Shown here: positions 5,081-44,262 of the stretch, in pieces | Numbering within the stretch: position 1 is the stretch's first letter | Layout of the letters: each line of letters begins with the position of its first letter | DNA from: an uncultured Candidatus Saccharibacteria bacterium | Lineage (GTDB): Bacteria > Patescibacteriota > Minisyncoccia > Phycocordibacterales > SBAW01 | DNA length: 64,000 nt | Assembly (NCBI GenBank): GCA_964650645.1 | Contig: CAZYUH010000001.1 | Coordinates: 475,099-539,098 of the forward strand | Direction: 5' to 3' | The notes under the pieces: model-generated | The model's database searches: none | Seen by the model: only the letters and a program-made list of their open reading frames with translations | Told to the model about the DNA's origin: nothing | Translations under genes and position numbers: made by a program

Positions 5081-5536
5081 TTACGAACAGGGGCGGTACA
5101 TGCTCCTCAGGCTCTCTCCCTTAAGCCATAGCAGTTTGCCGCCCGGAGGCGGAAGCCCGCCGCGGGCGTATATCCAGCGCCGCACGGGCGCGGGATACAG
5201 GTCAAGCAGGAAGGCTGTCGCCTCGGCGTCGGGAACGGAGACCGCTGCGCCGTACTGGGCCCGGCCTTCCCTCCATGCCTGGTGGAAGCCGAGCCTCGCC
5301 CGGGGCGTGACGCATATGCGATCCTGCGGCATGATGCCCAGGACGATGGTGCATGCCGATTTGCATGAGCCGTCTATCATCACCGCCTTGCCCGAGTTTC
5401 GAACGGCCTCGTATTTCTCAACGTAGTCGCCTATGCGCCCTCCGTCGTCACCGGCTATTACCGTTACGAAGCGGGCCTCGGCCGCCAGTGGAAATGAACC
5501 AAGCAGGCACAGCGCGAGCGCGAGCCTCTGCAGCAT
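5081..5536 (-). CDS. secreted hypothetical protein (151 aa, signal peptide MLQRLALALCLLGSFPLAAEA)
   Basis: Internal ATG at 5536 preceded by AGGAG (spacing about 7); signal peptide followed by a Cys-containing soluble domain. The upstream part of the listed 409-aa ORF is Arg-rich junk. Confidence 0.5.
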   Translation of the reverse strand: MLQRLALALCLLGSFPLAAEARFVTVIAGDDGGRIGDYVEKYEAVRNSGKAVMIDGSCKSACTIVLGIMPQDRICVTPRARLGFHQAWREGRAQYGAAVSVPDAEATAFLLDLYPAPVRRWIYARGGLPPPGGKLLWLKGESLRSMYRPCS

Positions 5537-5608
5537 GTCTCTACTCCTGTTATGAAGGGTCCGATCCTGCAAAAACCATAGCATATGCCCGCGTTCGCGC
5601 AAAAAAGA

Positions 5609-5633
5609 ATCCCCGGGCCTTTCGGTCCGGGGA
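5609..5633. terminator. intrinsic terminator hairpin, near-copy of the 5042 hairpin (CCCCGGGCC-tttc-GGTCCGGGG)
   Basis: GC stem with one G:T wobble, downstream of the minus gene 5653..6231. Confidence 0.5.
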
Positions 5634-5652
5634 TGCGCCGCTCGTCTTGGGG

Positions 5653-6231
5653 CTATTGTTCGGGGATGATTTCCTCTCCGTCGTATATGAGCACCGTGTA
5701 GCTTCCGCGCGGCGTGACGCACGTGATGATAGGGTCGGGCCCTATGGTCTTGATAGTAAACGAGCTGTCCGGAATGGCCGCGCGTATCCGCAGGAGCAGG
5801 TCGCGCGCGAAGTCCGGCACGCGGCGCTCTTCGCGCCTTTCGATGTACGTCCCGTCGCTCTCGAGCCGGTGCGTAGCCCATTCCGATGAGGGGCGGCACA
5901 GCGTGCGGCCCAGGAGCGTGAACGCGAGCGCCGGCATCGCTGCGGCGGACAGGATCGTGACGCATACGAGGGCCATGCTGTCCCCGTATCCTCCAAGAGC
6001 CGCTTCTCCCGCCGCAACGGTTAAGCAGAATACGGCGACCGATGCGAAGAAACGTATGGTGTCTGACCATGCATCGCCCATGCGCCGCGCGATGAGGCCC
6101 GGCGGGTGCTTGAGAAGCTCGGCGTCCATATAGCGCTGCACGTATCCGTCGTCGTATATGCATGCTCCGGCCGCCTCTAAGAGGGTTGCGTCGCTTGCAC
6201 GGTCTTCCTTGCGGTACCCGGGCTGGGTCAT
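5653..6231 (-). CDS. hypothetical membrane protein (2 TM)
   Basis: ATG 6231 preceded by AGGAGCGACTG; TM segments ASVAVFCLTVAAG and ALVCVTILSAAAMPALAFTLLG. Confidence 0.5.
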   Translation of the reverse strand: MTQPGYRKEDRASDATLLEAAGACIYDDGYVQRYMDAELLKHPPGLIARRMGDAWSDTIRFFASVAVFCLTVAAGEAALGGYGDSMALVCVTILSAAAMPALAFTLLGRTLCRPSSEWATHRLESDGTYIERREERRVPDFARDLLLRIRAAIPDSSFTIKTIGPDPIITCVTPRGSYTVLIYDGEEIIPEQ

Positions 6232-9695: not shown

Positions 9696-10292
9696 ATGCG
9701 CGCCCTCGCTTTCGCCGCCACCTTCATATGCTTCTTCTTCATGACCTACGCCTTTCTGGGGCTGGTCGACGCCCTGCCTAATCCGCCGGAGTCTGCTGAC
9801 ACCGCGTCGCGCGAGCCTGCCAGCGCGCCGGAGCCTGTCGCGCAGGATGCGCGCGAATTGCCGGTGCGCGTCGTGGTAAAGGACGCGGGCATAGACTCCA
9901 AGGTGCTCAACCCGGCCTCGACCGACCTCGATACGCTTAACGCCGCAGTGGACGAGGCGGCGATGCGCTGGCCCACCTCGGGCCTGCTTGGCCAGAACGG
10001 CACCGTGGCGCTCTTCGGCCACTCGTCGCATTTGCCGGTGGTCTACAACCAGGCGTACAAGACGTTCAACGGGATAGAGCACCTCAAGAAGGGCCAGATC
10101 GTGAGCGTCTATTCGGGCACGGCCGAATACCGCTACGCGGTTACGGGCGTGCGCGTCGCCAGCGCCGAGGAGGACGTCGTCGAGCTTCCGTCCGACGGGA
10201 AGCACCTCGTGCTCATCACCTGCGACAATTTCGGCAGCAAGTCCGACCGCTATGTCGTGACCGCGGATTTCCAGGGCGCGTACGCCCTTTAG
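9696..10292 (+). CDS. sortase-family transpeptidase
   Basis: N-terminal TM; catalytic-triad context ALFGHSS (His), LVLITCDNF (TLxTC Cys), downstream Arg (DRYVVTA); divergent from the CARDB gene. Confidence 0.7.
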   Translation: MRALAFAATFICFFFMTYAFLGLVDALPNPPESADTASREPASAPEPVAQDARELPVRVVVKDAGIDSKVLNPASTDLDTLNAAVDEAAMRWPTSGLLGQNGTVALFGHSSHLPVVYNQAYKTFNGIEHLKKGQIVSVYSGTAEYRYAVTGVRVASAEEDVVELPSDGKHLVLITCDNFGSKSDRYVVTADFQGAYAL

Positions 10293-10526: not shown

Positions 10527-12305
10527 ATGGCCAAGCCAATCTACGTAAATGCGAAAGGTCAGCGCGTCGCTGAGGCTGATTCGGGCCAGTGGAGGGAAGT
10601 AAACGCTGCGGGCGAGCCGAAAGGCCCGTTCGCGGATTCTCCATTCAAGCATGGAGCCAATCCCCAGCCTGAATCATCGCCAGCTGCGCGAGCGGATGTG
10701 CCGGACGAAATCCGGCGCGTCGCTTCCGAGCTGGAATCGCTCAAAGCAAAGCTTAACGCCTTGCAGGAGTCGAAACCGGATCGCGGCCAGCTCAACCGGG
10801 CTGTCGAGGAGCTAGTAAGCCTCGCCAAGCAGGTGGGTGAACTGCGTGTCGCCTTTGGCGGCGCGGAACAGATCGAAGCGTTCGTTAAGAGCGTTGGCGA
10901 TCTGGCCGGGCAAATCCAAGAGCTGGACAAGCGCATCAACCAAGTCAGTGACAAGGTGGATGCCACTGCCGATACTCTCAATGAGGCCGGCAGAGGGGTA
11001 GTCGATCGCTTCAAGGCGGTTGAAGCCCGCATCAAGGAGCTCGAAAGCCGTCCGGCTGAAACCGTAGAACCTTCCAATCCTCACCCCCATACATCATCGC
11101 CCCGCGATGATGCGGGGCAAAAGAAGGAGGAGGCAATGCCTCAGACTGAGAATCGAACTGAGACGACGTCTAATTCCCAAGCTTCGCAACCGCCTCGCGG
11201 CGATGCGGGGCAAAAGGAGAAGTTCATGTCATCCTTCAGGTCTAATCCTATCGCGGTTTTCGGAGCTGCGGCGGTCGTTGCTTTCCTTGGCTGGTTGGTA
11301 TTCGGCTTCAGTCATGCGCCGCAGAAGGTAACGACCGCACTGGGCACCGTCGATAACGGCTCTGCCGTTGTTGCCGAGACCCCGGCCCAGCGCGACCGCC
11401 GCTTCGCGGAGATCGCGGGAGCGACCTTCGACCAGCGCATCCAGCCGATCGACAGGGACCTGGAGAAGCTCAAGTCAAAGACTGACGGCTTGACCAGCAA
11501 CCTTTCCGACCTGGGCACCCAGGTTGCCAAGGTTGAAAAGAGCGTCGCGTCGGGCATCGAGAAGGTGATGGCCCAGCTGGAGAAGGTGGTAAACGCCAAG
11601 ACGTCGTCCGATACGGACGAGGTCGAGGCCAAGCGCCTTGCCCAGATTAAGGCAGAATGTTTGCCTGATTCGGAAACGACGAAGGGCTTGGACCTGAAGA
11701 AGGACCTGCCCGAAGAAACGTTCCAGTCTGTCTTGCGCATCTGCCGCGCGGAGAAAGAGGAGAAGATGCGCCAGGCTCAGACGCCTGTCGGGTCCCTTCC
11801 TTCGCCTCAGGCGCGGACGCTTCCCGCGTCCGTGAACGCGGCGGACCTTCCCGAGGCTGCGGATGATTCGTCATTCCAGCCGCAGGGTGCCGATGCATCC
11901 GGGGATGCGGGGGACGGACAGTCCGCCGCTTCCTTGGGAGGCGACGACCTGACGGGGCCCTACGACCCCCGGACGGCCAAGGCAATGTCACCAGGCGTTG
12001 CGCACGTTGCGCAGGCGGGGTACATGGGCCCGGGCGTCGGCGGCCCCGGATTCGGACCTGTAGGTCCCGGGTTCGGGCCTGGTCCCCGCGGCGGCCGTAT
12101 CAGCGGTCCTCGGTGTCCTCGCGGAAGCGCCTTCAATCCGCGGTACGGGAAGTGCATCGGAACCCGATTGCATGATTTACCCGTATCTCCCCAGATGGGG
12201 CAAATACTCAGCACGTGCAGGGATATTGTCACGCGCGAAGTGTGGAAGAACGGACACCTCACCCAGCAGCAGAAGGGAATCGGCTGCCGGCGTCCGGCCT
12301 ACTAA
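10527..12305 (+). CDS. bitopic coiled-coil membrane protein (592 aa), internal duplicated PRxDAGQK motif, Gly/Pro- and Cys-containing C-terminus
   Basis: AGGAGGG RBS 5 nt before the ATG; heptad-like segments on both sides of the single TM (AVFGAAAVVAFLGWLVFGF); no homolog recognised. Confidence 0.6.
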   Translation: MAKPIYVNAKGQRVAEADSGQWREVNAAGEPKGPFADSPFKHGANPQPESSPAARADVPDEIRRVASELESLKAKLNALQESKPDRGQLNRAVEELVSLAKQVGELRVAFGGAEQIEAFVKSVGDLAGQIQELDKRINQVSDKVDATADTLNEAGRGVVDRFKAVEARIKELESRPAETVEPSNPHPHTSSPRDDAGQKKEEAMPQTENRTETTSNSQASQPPRGDAGQKEKFMSSFRSNPIAVFGAAAVVAFLGWLVFGFSHAPQKVTTALGTVDNGSAVVAETPAQRDRRFAEIAGATFDQRIQPIDRDLEKLKSKTDGLTSNLSDLGTQVAKVEKSVASGIEKVMAQLEKVVNAKTSSDTDEVEAKRLAQIKAECLPDSETTKGLDLKKDLPEETFQSVLRICRAEKEEKMRQAQTPVGSLPSPQARTLPASVNAADLPEAADDSSFQPQGADASGDAGDGQSAASLGGDDLTGPYDPRTAKAMSPGVAHVAQAGYMGPGVGGPGFGPVGPGFGPGPRGGRISGPRCPRGSAFNPRYGKCIGTRLHDLPVSPQMGQILSTCRDIVTREVWKNGHLTQQQKGIGCRRPAY

Positions 12306-12434: not shown

Positions 12435-12462
12435 GCGTGCGTTTATTAGGAGCGAATATAAT

Positions 12463-13524
12463 ATGACTACCATTATAAAGAACATCATCGGTGCAGCGTT
12501 CGCGCTCATGGCGCTCGCCCTCCCGGTCGGTTCCGCTTTCGCGGCCGATCTTGACCTGGGTAGCTATGACACCGGCTGGTCGGATACGGGTTACTACGAT
12601 TCATACGATGCGTCGTACGACAGCTACTACGACACCGGCTGGACGGACACCGGCTACTACGATACGTACGATGCGTCGTACGATACCGGCTGGGTCGACA
12701 CCGGCTACTACGATACGTACGATGCGTCGTATGACACTGGCTGGGTCGACACCGGCTACTATGACACCTACTCTCCGTCGTACAGCACCGGCTACTCGAT
12801 GCCTTCCTTCGGCGGGATGTCCTTCGGCGGCTCCTCGTTCGGCGGCGGCTACGGCTACGGGATGCCTTCGTTCGGCACGCCCAACTACGCCTACCGCCAG
12901 GCCAACTACCCCCAGTTCCTGCCCCCGTCCAATACGGTAGTCGAGACCAACACCTGCACCGACAACTCCTGCAACTACGTCGACAACAGCATCGTCGACA
13001 ACAGCGTGGTGGACAACAGCGTCGTCGACAACAGCGTCACCATAGAGAACTCCTTCAACAACCAGGAGAAGAAGCGCGAGCGCCGCGACGACTACTGCTA
13101 CGACTACAACTACGGCAACCAGCAGGGCTACGGCCAGCAGGGCTACACCTACGGCTCGTACGCTTACCAGGGCAACTGCTACAGCTACGCCGCCCCGATA
13201 CCGCTGCCGCCGGTCAACACCACCCCGTACATCACGCTCTCGCAGACCCCGTACACCGGCCTCGACCTCGGGCCCTTCGGCGAGGTGCTCTACTGGACCT
13301 TCCTCGTCCTGTGGTGCCTGGGCGCCGCGTACCTGGTCGTCGTCAAGCGCGTCCAGAACAGGCTCGTCGGCTTCCTTAACGGCTTCCTGTTCGGCGGCGC
13401 ATCCGCCGCGGCCGCAGCGCCCGCTGCCCGCGCCGCTCACGCTCCGCAGGCTGCCGCAGCATCCGCTCCGCTCGTAGAAGAGGGCATCGACCCCTTCATC
13501 ATGAGCCAGATCAAGCGCTCCTAA
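12463..13524 (+). CDS. secreted Tyr/Asp/Gly/Thr-rich tandem-repeat protein with C-terminal TM segment
   Basis: Signal peptide MTTIIKNIIGAAFALMALALPVGSAFA; 4 x 17-aa repeats (YDTGWxDTGYYDTYDAS); VDNS pentapeptide repeats; GY/YG-rich tract; TPYTG + hydrophobic + KR near the C-terminus. Confidence 0.65.
   Translation: MTTIIKNIIGAAFALMALALPVGSAFAADLDLGSYDTGWSDTGYYDSYDASYDSYYDTGWTDTGYYDTYDASYDTGWVDTGYYDTYDASYDTGWVDTGYYDTYSPSYSTGYSMPSFGGMSFGGSSFGGGYGYGMPSFGTPNYAYRQANYPQFLPPSNTVVETNTCTDNSCNYVDNSIVDNSVVDNSVVDNSVTIENSFNNQEKKRERRDDYCYDYNYGNQQGYGQQGYTYGSYAYQGNCYSYAAPIPLPPVNTTPYITLSQTPYTGLDLGPFGEVLYWTFLVLWCLGAAYLVVVKRVQNRLVGFLNGFLFGGASAAAAAPAARAAHAPQAAAASAPLVEEGIDPFIMSQIKRS
12571..12780 (+). repeat. 4 x 51-nt tandem direct repeats, coding (inside CDS 12463..13524)
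   Basis: Units tacgatacgtacgatgcgtcgtacgataccggctgggtcgacaccggctac, nearly identical at 12655-12705 and 12706-12756. Confidence 0.8.
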
Positions 13525-13597
13525 TCCCTACAGGGAAGCGCCGTCCGCTAGTCCTAACGTGCAGCGAATCCACTGCATGGCGAGTGCCCCGAGAAAC

Positions 13598-13625
13598 CCC
13601 CGCCCACGGCGGGGGTTTCGCCTTA
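13598..13625 (+). terminator. intrinsic terminator (AAACCCCCGCC-cac-GGCGGGGGTTT)
   Basis: GC hairpin + T-tract after the CDS ending 13524. Confidence 0.7.
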
Positions 13626-13654
13626 TTGCTATCTTCATGCAAGTCGGCTATTAT
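13626..13654 (+). promoter_or_regulatory. sigma70-type promoter TTGCTA-17-TATTAT
   Basis: Upstream of the ATG 13685 (RBS GGAAAGAG). Confidence 0.55.
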
Positions 13655-13684
13655 GGCGGCCATTAGCAGGAAAGAGCATATTTT

Positions 13685-14131
13685 ATGAAGAACTACGCGG
13701 TTTCAGCGGCATCGGCGCTCGCGCTCGCAATGGCGGTACTGGCCCCCTCGTCCGCCCTGGCCTATTGCAACGGGGCGGGGAGCACGTGCGTCCAGAGCAA
13801 CGCCTACTCGAAGCCGTACTACAACAGCCAGTACGTGAACCCGAACGCGTTCGCGGGGCAGTACGGAGGCTACGGCTACGGCGGGTACGCGCCGTACGGC
13901 GGCTATGGCGGGTTCGGCGGCTACTACGGGCAGGGCTACGGGTACGGCTACCAGCAGCCCCTGTACTTCCCGGTCTACAACACGACCTTCCCGGGCTACT
14001 ACGGGTTCGGCGGCTACTACGGCCAGAACTACGGGTACAACAATTACGCCTACAACTACGGATACGACTACGGCTATAACTACGGGTACGACTACGGCGG
14101 GTACGACTACGCCTACGATTACTGGTACTAG
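13685..14131 (+). CDS. small secreted Gly/Tyr-rich low-complexity protein (148 aa)
   Basis: Signal peptide MKNYAVSAASALALAMAVLAPSSALA; remainder about 60% G/Y with GYGYG, YGGY and NYGY repeats; own promoter and terminator. Confidence 0.6.
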   Translation: MKNYAVSAASALALAMAVLAPSSALAYCNGAGSTCVQSNAYSKPYYNSQYVNPNAFAGQYGGYGYGGYAPYGGYGGFGGYYGQGYGYGYQQPLYFPVYNTTFPGYYGFGGYYGQNYGYNNYAYNYGYDYGYNYGYDYGGYDYAYDYWY

Positions 14132-14145
14132 GTAAAGCGCGCCGG

Positions 14146-14176
14146 TCGCAAAAACCCCCGCCACAAAGGCGGGGGT
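14146..14176. terminator. bidirectional terminator (A5-CCCCCGCC-acaaa-GGCGGGGG-T5)
   Basis: Between convergent 13685..14131 (+) and thrS (-). Confidence 0.75.
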
Positions 14177-14185
14177 TTTTCTGGC

Positions 14186-15394
14186 CTAGCTGCGGGTTTT
14201 TATCTCGTCCGCGAGCCTCGTGACGATGTCCTGTATGGGAAACGCGCCCAGCTTGCCCTCGCGGCCTTCAAGGGTGACGGTGCCGGAGGCGACCTCGGCA
14301 TCGCCTATGACCATGAGGTAGGGGACCTTCGCGGTTTTCGCGTTGCGTATCTTCTTGCCGAGGCTCTCGCTTGAATAGTCGGCTTCGGCGCGGATGCCGG
14401 CCTCGCGCAGGCGCTCGAGCGTGTCCTGCGCGAACGCGGCGTGCGCCTCGCCTATGGGGATGACGATGGCCTGCACCGGCGAGAGCCATGTGGGAAGGAT
14501 GCCGTCGAGGTGTTCGAGCAGCACCGCGATGCACCGCTCGAGGGAGCCGGTGATGGCCGAGTGGATCATGACGATGCGCTCCTTTTTTCCTTCTTCATTG
14601 ATGCACGCGAGGTCAAAGCGCTCGGGCTGGTTGAGGTCGAGCTGGATGGTGGCGACCTGCCACTCGCGGCCCGCGGCGTTCTTGGCCATGAAGTCGAGCT
14701 TGGGGCCGTAGAGCGCCGCCTCGCCCGGGCCCTCGAAGAAGTCCGCGCCGCGCTCCACCGCTATCTCGCGCAGGGCGCCTTCGGCGCTGTCCCACACCGC
14801 GGGCGTGCCTATGTATTTTTCCGGCGCCGACGGATCACGGAACGAGAGGCGCACGCGGAGCGTGAACCCGAACTGGCGGTAGAAGCGGTCCACGATGTCC
14901 CAGATCTTCAGGAACTCGTCCTTTATCTGCGACGTGCGGCAGAATACGTGGCTGTCGTCCTGCGTGATGGACAGCACGCGCGTGAGGCCGCCGAGCTCGC
15001 CGGACTGCTCGTCGCGGTAGACCATGGTGGTCTCGGCGTAGCGCTGGGGCATCTCGCGGTAGGAGTGCGGCCGGCGCGCGAATATCTGCGTGTGGTGCGG
15101 GCAGTTCATGGGCTTGAGCGCGTACTCCTTTCCCTCGCGCGAGGTGATGCGGAAGAGGTCGTCGGAGAACTTGTCCCAATGGCCGCTCGTCTCGTACAGG
15201 CTCTTTTTGGTGATGTGGGGGATGGTGACGCGGTCGTAGCCGTGCGCGTTGCGCAGTTCCCAGACGAAGCGGTCTATTTCCTCGCGCACCACGGTGCCCT
15301 TGGGGGTCCACAGCGGGAGCCCCGAGCCCACCAGGTCGCTGAACGTAAAAAGGTCGAGCTCGCGCCCGATGGTCCTGTGATCGCGTTCTTCCAT
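14186..15394 (-). CDS. thrS: threonine--tRNA ligase, catalytic + anticodon-binding domains only (402 aa; no TGS/editing domain)
   Basis: RDHRTIGRELDLF, class II motifs (FRITSREGKEYALKPMNCPHH, FCR...GELGGLTRV); C-terminal anticodon-binding fold. Confidence 0.9.
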   Translation of the reverse strand: MEERDHRTIGRELDLFTFSDLVGSGLPLWTPKGTVVREEIDRFVWELRNAHGYDRVTIPHITKKSLYETSGHWDKFSDDLFRITSREGKEYALKPMNCPHHTQIFARRPHSYREMPQRYAETTMVYRDEQSGELGGLTRVLSITQDDSHVFCRTSQIKDEFLKIWDIVDRFYRQFGFTLRVRLSFRDPSAPEKYIGTPAVWDSAEGALREIAVERGADFFEGPGEAALYGPKLDFMAKNAAGREWQVATIQLDLNQPERFDLACINEEGKKERIVMIHSAITGSLERCIAVLLEHLDGILPTWLSPVQAIVIPIGEAHAAFAQDTLERLREAGIRAEADYSSESLGKKIRNAKTAKVPYLMVIGDAEVASGTVTLEGREGKLGAFPIQDIVTRLADEIKTRS

Positions 15395-29978: not shown

Positions 29979-30255
29979 GAATAGCGAAACCAACGGGCAG
30001 GCCGCGGGGGCCATGAGTGAGTATCGAGTGGGGGTTTCGATACAACTAAAGAGGTGTGGATACTTTCACCTAAAGCTTCATAAGGAAGCAGGGGAGCCCT
30101 TTGGGCGACCCGGATTTTTCGTGTTTTGGCTGTGTGCATAAGTCAGTTGACTCCTAAGCATTTGTGCGAATAGCCATTGCCAGGAAAGAGAGAGGTGGGT
30201 GCGTCGGGCGCAGGTGCGGGTCCCTTTATCAACGTCCCTTCATCTTACAATCATC

Positions 30256-37107
<6,852 letters not shown>

Positions 37108-43485: not shown

Positions 43486-44262
43486 TTACTGCGTCTCCGG
43501 AGAGGAAGTGGGCTGGGGCGCGCCGGCCTCGACCGTGCCGCCCGCTGCCGAGCCGCCGGCCGGGGCGACGTCGGCGCCGCCCGGGACCGAGGAGAGGACC
43601 GCGTCAATGGCCGCGCGCATCGAGGAGTACGGCTGGGCGCCCGAGAGCGCTACCGCGTCCTCGCCGACCATGATGAGCGTGTAGGGCGTGCCCTGGCCGC
43701 CGGCCTTTATAGCCTCGTTGTAGCTGTCGGTAATCTTCTTGGTGAACTTGCCTGAAGAAAGGCAGGCGTTGAAGGTGTCGGTGTTAAGGCCGACCTGGCC
43801 CGCGATGACGGGGAGCTGTGCGAGGTCCAGCCCGTTATTGGACGGCGTTACCTCGAACAGCTTGCTGATGTAGGAGAAGTACGCCGTATCGCCGCCCTGG
43901 TCCGCCGCGCACTCGGCCGCCTCGGCTTCTTTAGGGGCCTTGGGGTGGATGGATGCGAGAGGGAAGGGGCGCAGGACCCATGCCACCTTGCCGGAAGGGC
44001 CGTAGTACTCCATTACCTGGTGCATGGTGGCATCGAAGAGCTTGCAGTGCTGGCACTCGAGGTCCATGTACTCGACGACCTTGACCGGCGCGTCCGGGTT
44101 GCCGAGGATGTGGTCCAGGGCAGGGTCGTAGGCGCGCACGTTCTGCGGGTTGTCGGTGTTGGACGGGGTGGCCGTGCCCGACTTGCCGGCCCAGAAGACC
44201 GCGCCCGCGATAACGAGCCCTGCGACGACGATGGTAATAGGCAGTGCGTAATTTCTGTTCAT
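43486..44262 (-). CDS. membrane-anchored DsbA-like thiol:disulfide oxidoreductase (CQHC)
   Basis: N-terminal TM, thioredoxin fold with a CxxC motif, Ala/Gly/Pro-rich C-terminal tail. Confidence 0.7.
   Translation of the reverse strand: MNRNYALPITIVVAGLVIAGAVFWAGKSGTATPSNTDNPQNVRAYDPALDHILGNPDAPVKVVEYMDLECQHCKLFDATMHQVMEYYGPSGKVAWVLRPFPLASIHPKAPKEAEAAECAADQGGDTAYFSYISKLFEVTPSNNGLDLAQLPVIAGQVGLNTDTFNACLSSGKFTKKITDSYNEAIKAGGQGTPYTLIMVGEDAVALSGAQPYSSMRAAIDAVLSSVPGGADVAPAGGSAAGGTVEAGAPQPTSSPETQ

What the first reader, a model, noticed from the sequence alone, without database searches (positions are those of the whole stretch)
13685..14131. 148-aa secreted protein that is about 60% Gly+Tyr (GYGYG/NYGY/YGGY repeats) with a dedicated promoter and bidirectional terminator
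After a clean signal peptide the protein is almost purely G/Y/N/Q/F/P. Its composition resembles self-assembling or cross-linkable structural proteins such as FUS-like [GS]Y[GS] low-complexity domains. No enzymatic fold is possible. It sits immediately after the Tyr-rich repeat protein, suggesting a two-component extracellular material.
Basis: partly seen in the sequence, partly recalled or inferred. Interest (0 to 1): 0.5.

Follow-up and report, generated by a model that had tools for sequence, protein, structure and literature searches.

The report
Secreted tyrosine-rich disordered protein, CPR bacteria
This is a real, conserved gene for a small secreted protein that is about 30% tyrosine, has no predicted fold, and occurs only in one narrow group of ultra-small (CPR/Patescibacteria) bacteria beside a membrane-anchored tyrosine-rich surface protein; its function is untested, but it most likely acts as a self-sticking surface-coat component.

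Summary
The ORF at 13685-14131(+) is a real gene. Only this frame is open in nine orthologous loci. GC3 is 0.92, as in neighbouring genes, and close orthologue pairs give dN/dS of 0.08-0.26. The dedicated promoter and the terminators on both sides are supported by conservation across loci.

The protein belongs to a tiny unnamed family of about a dozen sequences in public data, all from one CPR/Patescibacteria clade. It has no Pfam, NCBIfam or PDB match, and AlphaFold gives pLDDT 40. The family shares:
- a signal peptide ending ALA;
- an N-terminal CNGxGxxC loop;
- 24-31% evenly spaced Tyr in an almost uncharged polar chain;
- an invariant central motif QP[LI]YFPVYNT;
- usually a C-terminal Cys loop, which the window copy lacks.

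The gene always lies between a membrane-anchored Tyr-rich protein carrying an invariant xPYTG motif and thrS, in a cluster that includes a sortase. Two related lineages keep the cluster but lack this gene.

My best reading, an inference, is a secreted, self-associating sticker-and-spacer surface-coat protein that partners the neighbour's disordered ectodomain. Interest is moderate.

The parts
13685..14131 (+). GY gene: 148-aa precursor of a secreted Tyr/Gly-rich low-complexity protein (coordinates include the stop codon)
   Evidence: ORF; GC by codon position 0.50/0.45/0.92; only frame open in 9 orthologous loci; dN/dS 0.08-0.26 in close pairs; the exact protein is on 4 contigs, 3 places shown from 3 different samples
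13685..13762 (+). Sec-type signal peptide, residues 1-26, with predicted cleavage after A-L-A
   Evidence: Hydrophobic core and A-x-A site; same layout in all family members, P21/A24/L25/A26 invariant. No signal-peptide predictor was available; this is inferred from the -3/-1 rule.
13766..13789 (+). N-terminal Cys loop C28-N-G-A-G-S-T-C35 (family consensus CNG[VA]G[NS]xC), presumed disulfide
   Evidence: C28, G30 and C35 invariant, N29 nearly invariant; a DsbA-like membrane-anchored thioredoxin is encoded at 43486-44262
13949..13993 (+). Central conserved motif Y89-QQPLYFPVYNTTF-P103, the only non-repetitive conserved block of the mature chain
   Evidence: Q91 Y94 F95 P96 Y98 T100 P103 invariant and P92 nearly invariant in the 10-sequence alignment (P92 invariant in the 8-sequence one); only stretch of the mature chain with pLDDT at or above 50; resembles the neighbour's motif next to xPYTG
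14016..14122 (+). C-terminal [ND]YGY / DY tandem repeats (periods 6, 12, 24 nt). They replace the C-terminal Cys loop found in most relatives.
   Evidence: Tandem Repeats Finder; alignment; an indel within this repeat block distinguishes P0001, which is 95% identical
13626..13654 (+). Dedicated promoter: -35 TTGCTA, 17-nt spacer, -10 TATTAT
   Evidence: Consensus scan; block TATTGCnAnCTTCATG-N8/9-TAyyAT conserved in 7 loci; unique in the window
13668..13676 (+). Shine-Dalgarno-like AGGAAAGAG, 8 nt before the ATG
   Evidence: Read from the sequence; a similar GGAAAGGAAA in L004; other relatives have almost no leader
13593..13619 (+). Terminator hairpin of the upstream gene, which separates the two transcription units
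   Evidence: Terminator scan and folding; an equivalent hairpin in L004, L006, L007 and L008
14150..14180 (.). Bidirectional intrinsic terminator AAAAACCCCCGCC-ACAAA-GGCGGGGGTTTTT, shared with convergent thrS
   Evidence: Folding of the 60-nt stretch after the stop codon, -34 kcal/mol; equivalents in L004, L006 and L008. The scan tool missed it, probably because the A/T tracts extend the stem.
12457..13524 (+). Neighbour: 355-aa type I membrane protein. It has a signal peptide, a disordered Asp/Tyr-repeat and Gly/Tyr/Gln-rich ectodomain, a CTDNSC loop, an invariant xPYTG motif, a TM helix, KRVQN and a conserved cytoplasmic tail.
   Evidence: xPYTG in 58/58 homologues; AlphaFold2: residues 25-247 below pLDDT 50, TM helix 272-311 with pLDDT 87-96
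9696..10292 (+). Sortase gene of the same conserved envelope cluster
   Evidence: Pfam Sortase, 1.2e-18; conserved position in L001, L004-L008, L010, L012-L015

Best explanation
The ORF is a genuine, monocistronic gene. It has its own promoter and a terminator on each side.

Its product is exported by the Sec pathway and cleaved after A-L-A. The mature chain of about 122 aa is intrinsically disordered and nearly uncharged. About 30% of it is tyrosine, spaced every 2-4 residues by Gly, Asn, Gln or Pro. It carries a small N-terminal disulfide loop and one conserved central motif (QPLYFPVYNTTFP).

The gene is the orthologue of a tiny, previously unnamed family confined to one clade of CPR/Patescibacteria. 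It is always encoded next to a membrane-anchored (possibly sortase-processed) protein with a disordered Tyr-rich ectodomain. Its central motif looks like that protein's juxtamembrane motif. I therefore read it as an anchorless, paralogue-like companion of the neighbour.

Inferred mechanism: the evenly spaced tyrosines act as multivalent stickers (pi-pi, Tyr-Tyr and Tyr-glycan contacts). The protein would self-associate and bind the neighbour's Tyr-rich brush, forming or thickening a cohesive, adhesive coat on the cell surface. In these probably host-attached bacteria, such a coat may also take part in contact with the host.

Shown here: gene reality, export signal, disorder, composition and patterning, conservation, synteny, promoter and terminators. 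Inferred: disulfides, self-association, binding to the neighbour, and the coat or adhesion role.
For: Real gene:
- GC3 is 0.92 and codon usage matches the genome.
- Only frame +1 is open in nine loci.
- dN/dS is 0.08-0.26 for close pairs.
- The exact protein was recovered from independent metagenomes.

Family and anatomy:
- Homologues P0001-P0008 and P0010 share the signal peptide, the CNGxGxxC loop, the QP[LI]YFPVYNT motif and usually a C-terminal CxnC[YH] loop.

Disorder and lack of a known family:
- AlphaFold2 gives pLDDT 40 with no secondary structure.
- Pfam, NCBIfam and PDB give nothing.

Sticker-and-spacer features:
- Tyr is 24-31% of the mature chain. K+R is at most 2 and D+E at most 4. 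Q+N+S+G+Y+P is 74-83% in every member.
- Adjacent aromatic pairs are depleted in all 8 members tested (P=0.0002-0.044; 0.0006 in the window protein). Gap variance is below the shuffles in 6 of 8, but not in the window or L004 proteins.

Partner and envelope context:
- The order CARDB-like TM protein - sortase - secreted/coiled-coil genes - xPYTG Tyr-rich protein - (YkuD in two loci) - GY - thrS holds wherever the flanks were recovered.
- The neighbour's ectodomain is also predicted to be disordered.
- The motif similarity YQQP[LI]YFPVYNTTFP versus YQQP[VI]..YN[TQ]TPY falls at a consistent place: 23 of 55 best hits end 8-14 residues before xPYTG. Real scores exceed shuffled ones (median -0.1 versus -3.3 bits).
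- A DsbA-like protein is present.

Own transcription unit:
-.
Against: - There is no experimental or expression data of any kind.
- Self-association is inferred from composition alone.
- The [GS]Y[GS] density of the window protein is low: 5 in 122 aa.
- The gene is missing from two related lineages that keep the neighbour and the rest of the cluster. It is therefore dispensable and not an obligate partner.
- Profile-profile comparison with the neighbour family gave only a weak, different match (60% probability).
- The motif-HMM scores are low in absolute terms, and hits in related sequences are not independent.
- The window copy has lost the C-terminal Cys loop that most relatives keep, so the family's function may need a feature that this copy lacks.
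- No tyrosine-oxidising enzyme was seen nearby.
Confidence: 0.4

Rival explanations
1. It is a secreted antimicrobial or host-directed effector peptide. Possible parallels are the Gly/aromatic-rich nematode NLP/caenacin peptides (YGGYG motifs), glycine-rich bacteriocins, or a disulfide-looped bacteriocin such as class IIa.
For: - It is small, secreted and rich in Gly/Tyr, with two YGGYG motifs.
- NLP and caenacin peptides are described as enriched in glycine and aromatic residues, with YGGYG motifs (PMC6780910).
- Terminal Cys loops are typical of many secreted peptides.
- Its fast evolution (43-57% identity where ThrRS is 82-93%) would fit an interaction or arms-race protein.
Against: - NLP and caenacin peptides are basic. 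This family is neutral to acidic, with K+R at most 2 and a window net charge of about -3.
- The mature chain is 103-168 aa, with no amphipathic segment and no processing sites.
- There is no immunity gene, ABC exporter or modification gene in the conserved neighbourhood.
- The N-terminal loop CNGVGNSC does not match the pediocin box YGNGVxCxxxxC (read; the box is recalled from my own knowledge).
- The same review says antimicrobial activity has not been directly tested even for the NLP and caenacin peptides.
Confidence: 0.1
2. It is a glycan- or cell-wall-binding adhesin. The many tyrosines would stack on sugar rings of peptidoglycan or polysaccharide, of the producer's own wall or of the host cell, and glue the epibiont to its host without forming a self-assembled material.
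For: - The context is a cell-envelope cluster with a sortase, and in two loci a YkuD L,D-transpeptidase gene sits directly upstream.
- The chain is Tyr-rich and uncharged.
- A conserved short linear motif could be a docking site.
- The Patescibacteria cultivated so far live attached to host cells (abstract of PMC11623550, listed).
Against: - There is no recognisable carbohydrate-binding or wall-binding domain.
- Disordered chains rarely bind glycans specifically.
- Nothing distinguishes this reading from the coat model with the tools available, and the two overlap.
Confidence: 0.15
3. It is covalently cross-linked structural material. Tyrosines would be oxidised to dityrosine or DOPA-quinone links, as in plant cell-wall glycine-rich proteins, resilin, insect or schistosome eggshell proteins and Bacillus spore-coat Tyr-rich proteins.
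For: - Tyr content is extreme.
- A signal peptide followed by a Gly/Tyr-rich chain with terminal Cys motifs recalls class II plant glycine-rich proteins (my own knowledge).
- It sits next to a second Tyr-rich extracellular protein.
Against: - No peroxidase, laccase, tyrosinase or superoxide dismutase was found in the conserved cluster or among the window genes examined. Only part of the window was annotated.
- CPR bacteria are generally described as anaerobic fermenters (abstract of PMC5220378, listed), which makes oxidative cross-linking less likely.
- There is no Pfam GRP or coat-protein match.
Confidence: 0.1
4. It is a spurious ORF, or an ORF on the wrong frame or strand, in a repeat-rich GC-rich stretch.
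For: The TAC/GGC-rich repeats leave several frames nearly free of stops in the window: -3 has 0 stops, and +3 and -1 have 1 each. Long shadow ORFs exist.
Against: - Those other frames are interrupted in the relatives, while +1 is intact in all nine loci.
- The GC3 peak is in frame +1.
- The gene shows purifying selection.
- The signal peptide, Cys residues and central motif are conserved at 43-57% overall identity.
- The promoter is conserved.
Confidence: 0.03

Closest known systems
FUS-type / prion-like low-complexity domains ([G/S]Y[G/S] sticker-and-spacer domains)
   Same: A polar, almost uncharged chain dominated by G/Q/N/S/P with about 25-30% Tyr. Aromatic residues are evenly spaced and rarely adjacent. 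No predicted fold.
   Different: It is a stand-alone, Sec-exported bacterial protein, not an intracellular domain of an RNA-binding protein. It is bracketed by Cys loops and carries one invariant non-repetitive motif. The window copy has only 5 [GS]Y[GS] triplets. There is no sequence homology, and its phase behaviour is untested.
Plant cell-wall glycine-rich proteins, classes I/II (own knowledge)
   Same: A signal peptide followed by a Gly/Tyr-rich repetitive chain. Class II members add a C-terminal Cys-rich motif, as most members of this family do. Both are extracellular, wall-associated structural proteins.
   Different: Those proteins are eukaryotic. There is no Pfam GRP match. Here Tyr, not Gly, is the conserved residue. 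No peroxidase partner was seen.
Nematode NLP / caenacin Gly- and aromatic-rich peptides (PMC6780910)
   Same: Signal peptide and YGGYG-type motifs.
   Different: Those peptides are basic and short. This family is neutral to acidic, with a mature chain of 103-168 aa. It is bacterial and shows no homology to them.
Curli CsgA and other secreted bacterial functional amyloids
   Same: Sec-exported, rich in Gln/Asn/Gly/Tyr, and a plausible self-assembling extracellular subunit.
   Different: No Curlin repeat match. No nucleator, chaperone or channel genes nearby. There is no regular 19-23-residue strand-loop-strand repeat. Pro is frequent (5-9%), which disfavours a long cross-beta core.
The adjacent xPYTG Tyr-rich membrane protein family (unnamed; 58 homologues in Patescibacteria MAGs)
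   Same: Same locus, signal peptide, disordered Tyr-rich extracellular chain, a short CxnC loop containing 'NSC', and a similar YQQP[VI]..YN[TQ]T motif.
   Different: The GY protein lacks the Asp/Tyr repeats (except a DY-rich tail in the window copy), the xPYTG motif, the TM helix and the cytoplasmic tail. Profile-profile similarity is not significant. The neighbour family has a far wider distribution.

Membership tests
GY family defined here (orthologues P0001-P0008, P0010; loci L004-L011, L014-L016) | Signal peptide ending A-L-A, followed by x-C-[NT]-G-x-G-x-x-C | tested here: met
   Window residues 24-35 read ALAYCNGAGSTC; C28, G30 and C35 are invariant
GY family defined here | Central motif QP[LI]YFP[VA]Y[NS]T[TY][FI]P | tested here: met
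   Window residues 91-103 read QPLYFPVYNTTFP
GY family defined here | C-terminal Cys loop C-x(2-8)-C-[YH] at or within 4 residues of the C-terminus | tested here: not met
   The window protein and P0001 end ...DYAYDYWY with no Cys. All other full-length members have the loop. I read this as a lineage-specific loss, not as grounds for exclusion.
GY family defined here | Position between the xPYTG protein gene and convergent thrS | tested here: met
FUS-like / prion-like low-complexity domain (a compositional class, not a homology family) | Polar uncharged composition with Tyr as the main aromatic residue | tested here: met
   Mature chain: Y 31%, G 24%, Q+N+S+G+Y+P 78%, K+R 1, D+E 4
FUS-like / prion-like low-complexity domain | Uniformly patterned aromatic residues | tested here: met
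   7 adjacent aromatic pairs against 15.5 expected, P=0.0006 in the window protein. Gap variance is not below the shuffles in the window protein (P=0.47) but is in 6 of 8 members.
FUS-like / prion-like low-complexity domain | High density of [G/S]Y[G/S] triplets | tested here: inconclusive
   5 in 122 aa in the window protein and 3-13 in relatives. FUS has about 27 in 214 aa (from memory).
FUS-like / prion-like low-complexity domain | Reversible phase separation, hydrogel or cross-beta polymer formation | not testable with these tools
   Needs purified protein
Curli / CsgA functional amyloid | Curlin repeat signature and csgB/E/F/G-type accessory genes | tested here: not met
   No Pfam hit at E<=1; no such genes in the conserved neighbourhood
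Nematode NLP / caenacin-type Gly/aromatic antimicrobial peptides | Basic net charge | tested here: not met
   K+R=1 and D+E=4 in the window protein; K+R at most 2 in all members. The peptides are described as basic in PMC6780910.
Class IIa (pediocin-like) bacteriocins | YGNGVxCxxxxC box in a cationic peptide of about 40 aa (own knowledge) | tested here: not met
   The motif here is xCNG[VA]G[NS]xC; the mature chain is 103-168 aa and uncharged
Sortase substrates (LPXTG cell-wall sorting signal) | C-terminal LPXTG-like motif, hydrophobic segment and basic tail | tested here: not met
   The GY protein ends in Tyr with no hydrophobic segment. The neighbour, by contrast, has xPYTG + TM + KRVQN, but with an 80-270-aa tail in full-length homologues.
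Bacterial lipoproteins | Lipobox [LVI][ASTVI][GAS]C | tested here: not met
   Position -1 is Y, I, V or L in 9 of 10 members. Only P0010 (ALASC) fits.

The most novel reading that the evidence does not exclude
This would be the first described extracellular bacterial sticker-and-spacer protein: a Sec-exported, prion-like Tyr-rich chain that condenses outside the cell into a gel or coacervate coat. It would do so on the Tyr-rich brush of its membrane-anchored neighbour, from which it arose by partial duplication, and would give ultra-small CPR epibionts a tunable adhesive for attaching to host cells.
Probability: 0.15. Interest if true: 0.7.

Novelty: new variant of a known kind. Interest (0 to 1): 0.4.

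Why it matters
CPR/Patescibacteria make up a large share of bacterial diversity, yet their envelopes and attachment mechanisms are largely unknown. This locus offers a compact, conserved envelope cluster: a sortase, a Tyr-rich protein carrying an invariant xPYTG motif, and a secreted chain that is about 30% Tyr.

If the protein self-assembles outside the cell, it would extend sticker-and-spacer (prion-like) phase behaviour to the bacterial cell surface. It would also provide a very small natural Tyr-rich material-forming sequence for biomaterials work.

If it does not self-assemble, the result is a well-delimited orphan family whose interest is mainly descriptive. Its narrow distribution (about a dozen sequences, one clade, lost in some members) limits its general importance.

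Tried and rejected
- **Family searches.** Pfam and NCBIfam scans of the GY protein gave nothing at E<=1. A PDB profile search gave nothing at E<=10.
- **Exhaustive profile search.** Against 1.84 billion representatives it gave 6 hits. P0009 is compositional noise (no signal-peptide/Cys/motif framework). P0004 matches only over its N-terminal half and then diverges into unrelated sequence.
- **Structure.** AlphaFold2 on the 8-sequence alignment produced no usable model (pLDDT 40), so no fold search was run.
- **Homology to the neighbour.** hhalign of the GY family against the neighbour family gave only a 60%-probability, 18-column match at the 'NSC' loops, which I do not accept as homology. BLASTP between the two gave E of about 1e-4 with composition correction, and stronger values only without it. 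I treated this as compositional, except for the motif that recurs at one position.
- **Gene conversion.** A blastn-short search for conversion between the GY 3' repeats and the neighbour's repeats found only 11-20-nt matches typical of TAC/GGC repeats.
- **RNA genes.** An Rfam scan and a tRNA scan of the window found no RNA element overlapping the ORF.
- **Literature.** Searches for bacterial Gly/Tyr-rich secreted proteins in CPR bacteria found nothing relevant. The 2026 CPR pilus preprint (Pam pilins, Ig-like folds) is unrelated.
- **Other readings considered and rejected.** These were lipoprotein (no lipobox), sortase substrate (no sorting signal), class IIa bacteriocin (motif and charge do not fit) and mobile-element cargo (native codon usage, housekeeping synteny).
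- **A correction.** I first read the absence of the gene in L012 and L013 as showing a recent gain. The ThrRS tree nests those two among GY-bearing lineages, so loss is more likely. This rests on a single-gene NJ tree and is not robust.
Full report

The window has an ORF from ATG 13685 to TAG 14131 on the + strand, encoding 148 aa. Tyr makes up 26% and Gly 20% of the precursor. After the predicted signal peptide (26 residues), the 122-aa chain is 31% Tyr and 24% Gly, followed by N 9%, Q 6%, A 6%, P 5% and F 4%. It has one Lys, four Asp and two Cys.

The measured values are 46% for the precursor, 55% for the mature chain and 66% for residues 58-148. The cited repeat motifs are present: GYGYG x2, NYGY x3, YGGY x4.

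By comparison, 26 other genes of the window average 3.2% Tyr. Only this gene and its upstream neighbour are Tyr-rich.

**2. Is it a gene?**

The window is 63% G+C, and the TAC/GGC repeats leave several frames almost free of stops, so shadow ORFs exist. Four lines of evidence single out frame +1.

- GC at codon positions 1/2/3 is 0.50/0.45/0.92, the pattern of bona fide genes here. Synonymous codon choice matches the genome: TAC is 92% of Tyr codons in both.
- In nine orthologous loci only +1 is open from start to stop. The other frames acquire 1-30 stops.
- Nei-Gojobori dN/dS is 0.08-0.26 for close pairs (L007/L009/L010/L014) and 0.25-0.64 for distant ones, where the alignment of the repeats is less certain.
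- The exact protein is on four contigs, of which three from three different samples were shown, and a 95%-identical variant was recovered separately.

The 'spurious ORF' reading is therefore rejected.

**3. Transcription signals**

A GC-rich hairpin at 13593-13619 ends the upstream gene. It is followed by TTGCTA-N17-TATTAT at 13626-13654, an AGGAAAGAG Shine-Dalgarno-like element at 13668-13676, and the ATG. Between the stop codon and the convergent thrS lies AAAAACCCCCGCC-ACAAA-GGCGGGGGTTTTT (14150-14180), a textbook bidirectional intrinsic terminator. Folding the 60 nt after the stop codon gives about -34 kcal/mol. The scan tool missed it, probably because the A/T tracts extend the stem.

Comparison across loci supports the promoter strongly. 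In seven loci the block TATTGCnAnCTTCATG-N8/9-TAyyAT is invariant, while the surrounding intergenic DNA has diverged. This holds even in L010, which carries an insertion of a few hundred nt upstream. The 16-mer occurs once in the window.

It also means that the gene and its neighbour are separate transcription units.

**4. The family**

The word-indexed search found eight relatives. The exhaustive HMMER profile search of 1.84 billion cluster representatives found only six proteins at E<=1e-3. One of these is compositional noise (P0009) and one matches only over its N-terminal half (P0004). Motif-based scans found two loci among 185,579 species genomes and two in JGI metagenomes. There is no match in Pfam, NCBIfam or PDB.

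The members are 129-189 aa long and share a precise framework:

- a signal peptide ending P-x-x-A-L-A;
- x-C-[NT]-G-[VA]-G-[NS]-x-C immediately after the cleavage site;
- a Tyr-rich low-complexity stretch;
- the motif [QSG][QP]P[LIM]YFP[VA]Y[NS]T[TY][FI]P, in which Q91, Y94, F95, P96, Y98, T100 and P103 are invariant;
- a second Tyr-rich stretch;
- in all full-length members except the window protein and its 95% variant, a terminal C-x(2-8)-C-[YH] loop.

The window copy instead ends in [ND]YGY/DY repeats (periods 6, 12 and 24 nt). It differs from P0001 by an indel within that repeat block, which suggests that the repeats evolve by slippage.

Across the family the conserved property is not Gly+Tyr. 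Tyr stays at 24-31% of the mature chain, charge is almost absent (K+R at most 2, D+E at most 4), and Q+N+S+G+Y+P is 74-83%. Gly ranges from 12 to 25% and is exchanged for Gln or Ser.

The aromatic residues are spaced more evenly than chance. Adjacent pairs are depleted in all 8 members tested (7 against 15.5 expected in the window protein, P=0.0006; P=0.0002-0.044 overall). Gap variance is below the shuffles in 6 of 8, but not in the window or L004 proteins.

AlphaFold2 on the family alignment gives mean pLDDT 40, pTM 0.12 and no secondary structure. Within the mature chain, only the central motif reaches pLDDT 50.

**5. Organism and locus**

The contigs are 56-65% G+C. Two species-representative MAGs are labelled 'uncultured Candidatus Saccharibacteria'. 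Homologues of the neighbouring gene are labelled Candidatus Adlerbacteria, Pacebacteria/Paceibacterota or 'Patescibacteria group'. These labels disagree for organisms whose ThrRS is 79-93% identical. I therefore conclude only that this is one clade of CPR/Patescibacteria.

The gene order is conserved wherever the flanks were recovered: gyrB - CARDB-like TM protein (-) - sortase (+) - variable coiled-coil and Cys-containing secreted genes - a protein of roughly 290-370 aa rich in Tyr - GY - thrS (-, a short 402-aa form) - dnaE (-). In L006 and L015 a YkuD L,D-transpeptidase gene sits between the neighbour and GY.

GY evolves fast. It is 43-57% identical to the window copy, where ThrRS is 82-93% and the sortase 67-80%.

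Two lineages, L012 (named Ca. Adlerbacteria) and L013, keep the entire cluster but have only a 75-84-nt terminator-bearing spacer where GY should be. They have no Tyr-rich ORF within about 5 kb. In a ThrRS NJ tree they are nested among GY-bearing lineages, so loss is more likely than late gain. This rests on a single gene and is not robust.

**6. The neighbour**

The gene at 12457-13524 encodes, in order:

- a signal peptide;
- rapidly evolving Asp/Tyr repeats (DTGWxDTGYYDxYDASY here, DYYGGDY or YSYDYSYPMDSG in relatives);
- a conserved NTC-x(4-5)-SCN loop followed by DNS repeats;
- a Gly/Tyr/Gln-rich stretch;
- ...TPY[IV]TLSQ-xPYTG-LDLGP, a TM helix, KRVQN, and a conserved tail ending GIDPFIxSQIxR.

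The xPYTG motif (VPYTG 25, APYTG 15, TPYTG 6, LPYTG 6, IPYTG 4, MPYTG 2) is present in 58 of 58 homologues.

AlphaFold2 with 49 sequences predicts a disordered ectodomain (residues 25-247, pLDDT below 50) and a confident TM helix (272-311, pLDDT 87-96).

The motif, hydrophobic segment and basic residues, together with the conserved sortase gene, look like a sortase sorting signal. However, the 80-270-residue conserved tail of the full-length homologues is not canonical. I record this as a lead, not a conclusion.

**7. Relation between the two proteins**

Profile-profile comparison gives only a weak match at the 'NSC' Cys loops (60% probability). Pairwise BLASTP repeatedly aligns the GY central motif with the neighbour's segment just before xPYTG. 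Two examples:

- L004: GY reads QQPLYFPAYNTTFP, and the neighbour reads AAPITFPVNTTPY.
- L007: GY reads YQQPIYFPVYNTTFP, and the neighbour reads YQQPVYQPQRPVSYNTTPY.

An HMM of the 17-residue GY motif, searched against the 58 neighbour homologues, places its best hit 8-14 residues before xPYTG in 23 of 55 cases. My estimate of the chance expectation is about 2. Real scores exceed those of shuffled ectodomains, with a median of -0.1 against -3.3 bits. The absolute scores are low, and related sequences are not independent.

I regard origin of GY by partial duplication of the neighbour's ectodomain (an 'anchorless paralogue') as suggested but not shown.

**8. Mechanism**

Shown here: the export signal, disorder, Tyr valence and patterning, conserved Cys pairs, an envelope gene context and an independent promoter. 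A DsbA-like membrane-anchored thioredoxin is also encoded in the window (43486-44262).

Inferred: the Cys pairs form small disulfide loops. The evenly spaced Tyr residues act as multivalent stickers in an otherwise inert polar spacer. This is the architecture that, in prion-like domains, drives reversible condensation while limiting aggregation (established knowledge: Martin et al. 2020, Science, cited from memory). The secreted chain would self-associate and bind the neighbour's Tyr-rich brush, possibly docking through the shared motif. The result would be a cohesive or adhesive surface layer.

I put this at about 0.4. The rivals are:

- a glycan- or wall-binding adhesin (0.15, overlapping with the main reading);
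- an oxidatively cross-linked material as in plant glycine-rich proteins, resilin or eggshell proteins (0.10; no oxidase seen, and the lineage is probably anaerobic);
- an antimicrobial or effector peptide like the nematode NLP/caenacins (0.10; those are basic and this is not);
- a spurious ORF (0.03).

**9. Comparison with known kinds and novelty**

By behaviour, the protein most resembles FUS-type or prion-like low-complexity domains and plant cell-wall glycine-rich proteins. By descent, it belongs to none of them, nor to curli, class IIa bacteriocins, lipoproteins or sortase substrates (see the membership tests).

It is an unnamed, lineage-restricted family. I rate it a new variant of a known kind: secreted Tyr-rich low-complexity structural proteins, here in bacteria and with a distinctive framework of Cys loops and a central motif.

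Interest is moderate (0.4). The composition is extreme, and the locus is a tractable entry point to CPR envelope biology. However, the family is tiny, dispensable in related lineages, and has no functional data.

Noticed in passing
window 30199-37107 (+): A single 2302-aa ORF carries all RpoB domains (residues 38-1066) followed by all RpoC domains (1085-2187). The two largest RNA polymerase subunits appear to be fused into one gene.
   Followed up: no
window 12457-13524 (+); homologues P0011-P0068: The Tyr-rich neighbour family has an invariant [VALTIM]PYTG[LF][DE]xG motif (58 of 58), followed by a TM helix, KRVQN and a conserved tail of 80-270 aa in full-length members ending GIDPFIxSQIxR. 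A sortase gene is conserved in the same cluster. It looks like a sorting signal but has a non-canonical long tail.
   Followed up: partly
window 13582-13591; also L004, L007, L008, L012, L013 just after the stop of the neighbour gene: A conserved GAGTGCCCCG element (GAGTGTCCCG in L008) lies between the neighbour's stop codon and its terminator. It is also present in the lineages that lack the GY gene. Its function is unknown.
   Followed up: no
L010, within 5505-5976 (between the neighbour gene and the GY promoter): An insertion of a few hundred nt encodes a small GIY-YIG-like ORF (MFYVYVLENTSDRSWYIGYSADLKKRIKDHHAG...). The GY promoter block downstream is kept intact.
   Followed up: no
L006 7381-7902 and L015 4614-5132: A YkuD-type L,D-transpeptidase gene is inserted between the xPYTG protein gene and the GY gene in two lineages. 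This reinforces the cell-wall context.
   Followed up: no
window 14186-15394 (-): The threonyl-tRNA synthetase is a short 402-aa form, with only the class II core and anticodon-binding domains and no N-terminal TGS or editing domains. L015 has a 407-aa ThrRS only about 50% identical to the others, despite the same synteny.
   Followed up: partly
window 1-64000: No tRNA gene and no Rfam family at the gathering threshold in 64 kb.
   Followed up: no
L006, L007, L008, L010, L014 GY upstream regions versus window and L004: In five lineages the conserved -10 box lies only about 9-10 nt from the annotated ATG, which implies a leaderless or near-leaderless mRNA. The window and L004 have a spacer of about 30 nt between the -10 box and the ATG, with a GGAAAG Shine-Dalgarno element.
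   Followed up: partly
window 10527-12305 (+) and counterparts (L004 4653-6621, L008 7406-8695, L010 3113-4279): The 592-aa coiled-coil/TM protein ends in a conserved Cys-rich module (...GPRCPxGSxFxPxxGKCIGTRLH...C...GIGCRRP). In relatives it is split into, or replaced by, two or three smaller secreted or membrane proteins, so this part of the cluster is variable.
   Followed up: no
window 43486-44262 (-): A membrane-anchored DsbA/thioredoxin-like protein (Pfam Thioredoxin_4, 7e-24). This is consistent with disulfide formation in the many Cys-pair-containing exported proteins of this organism.
   Followed up: no
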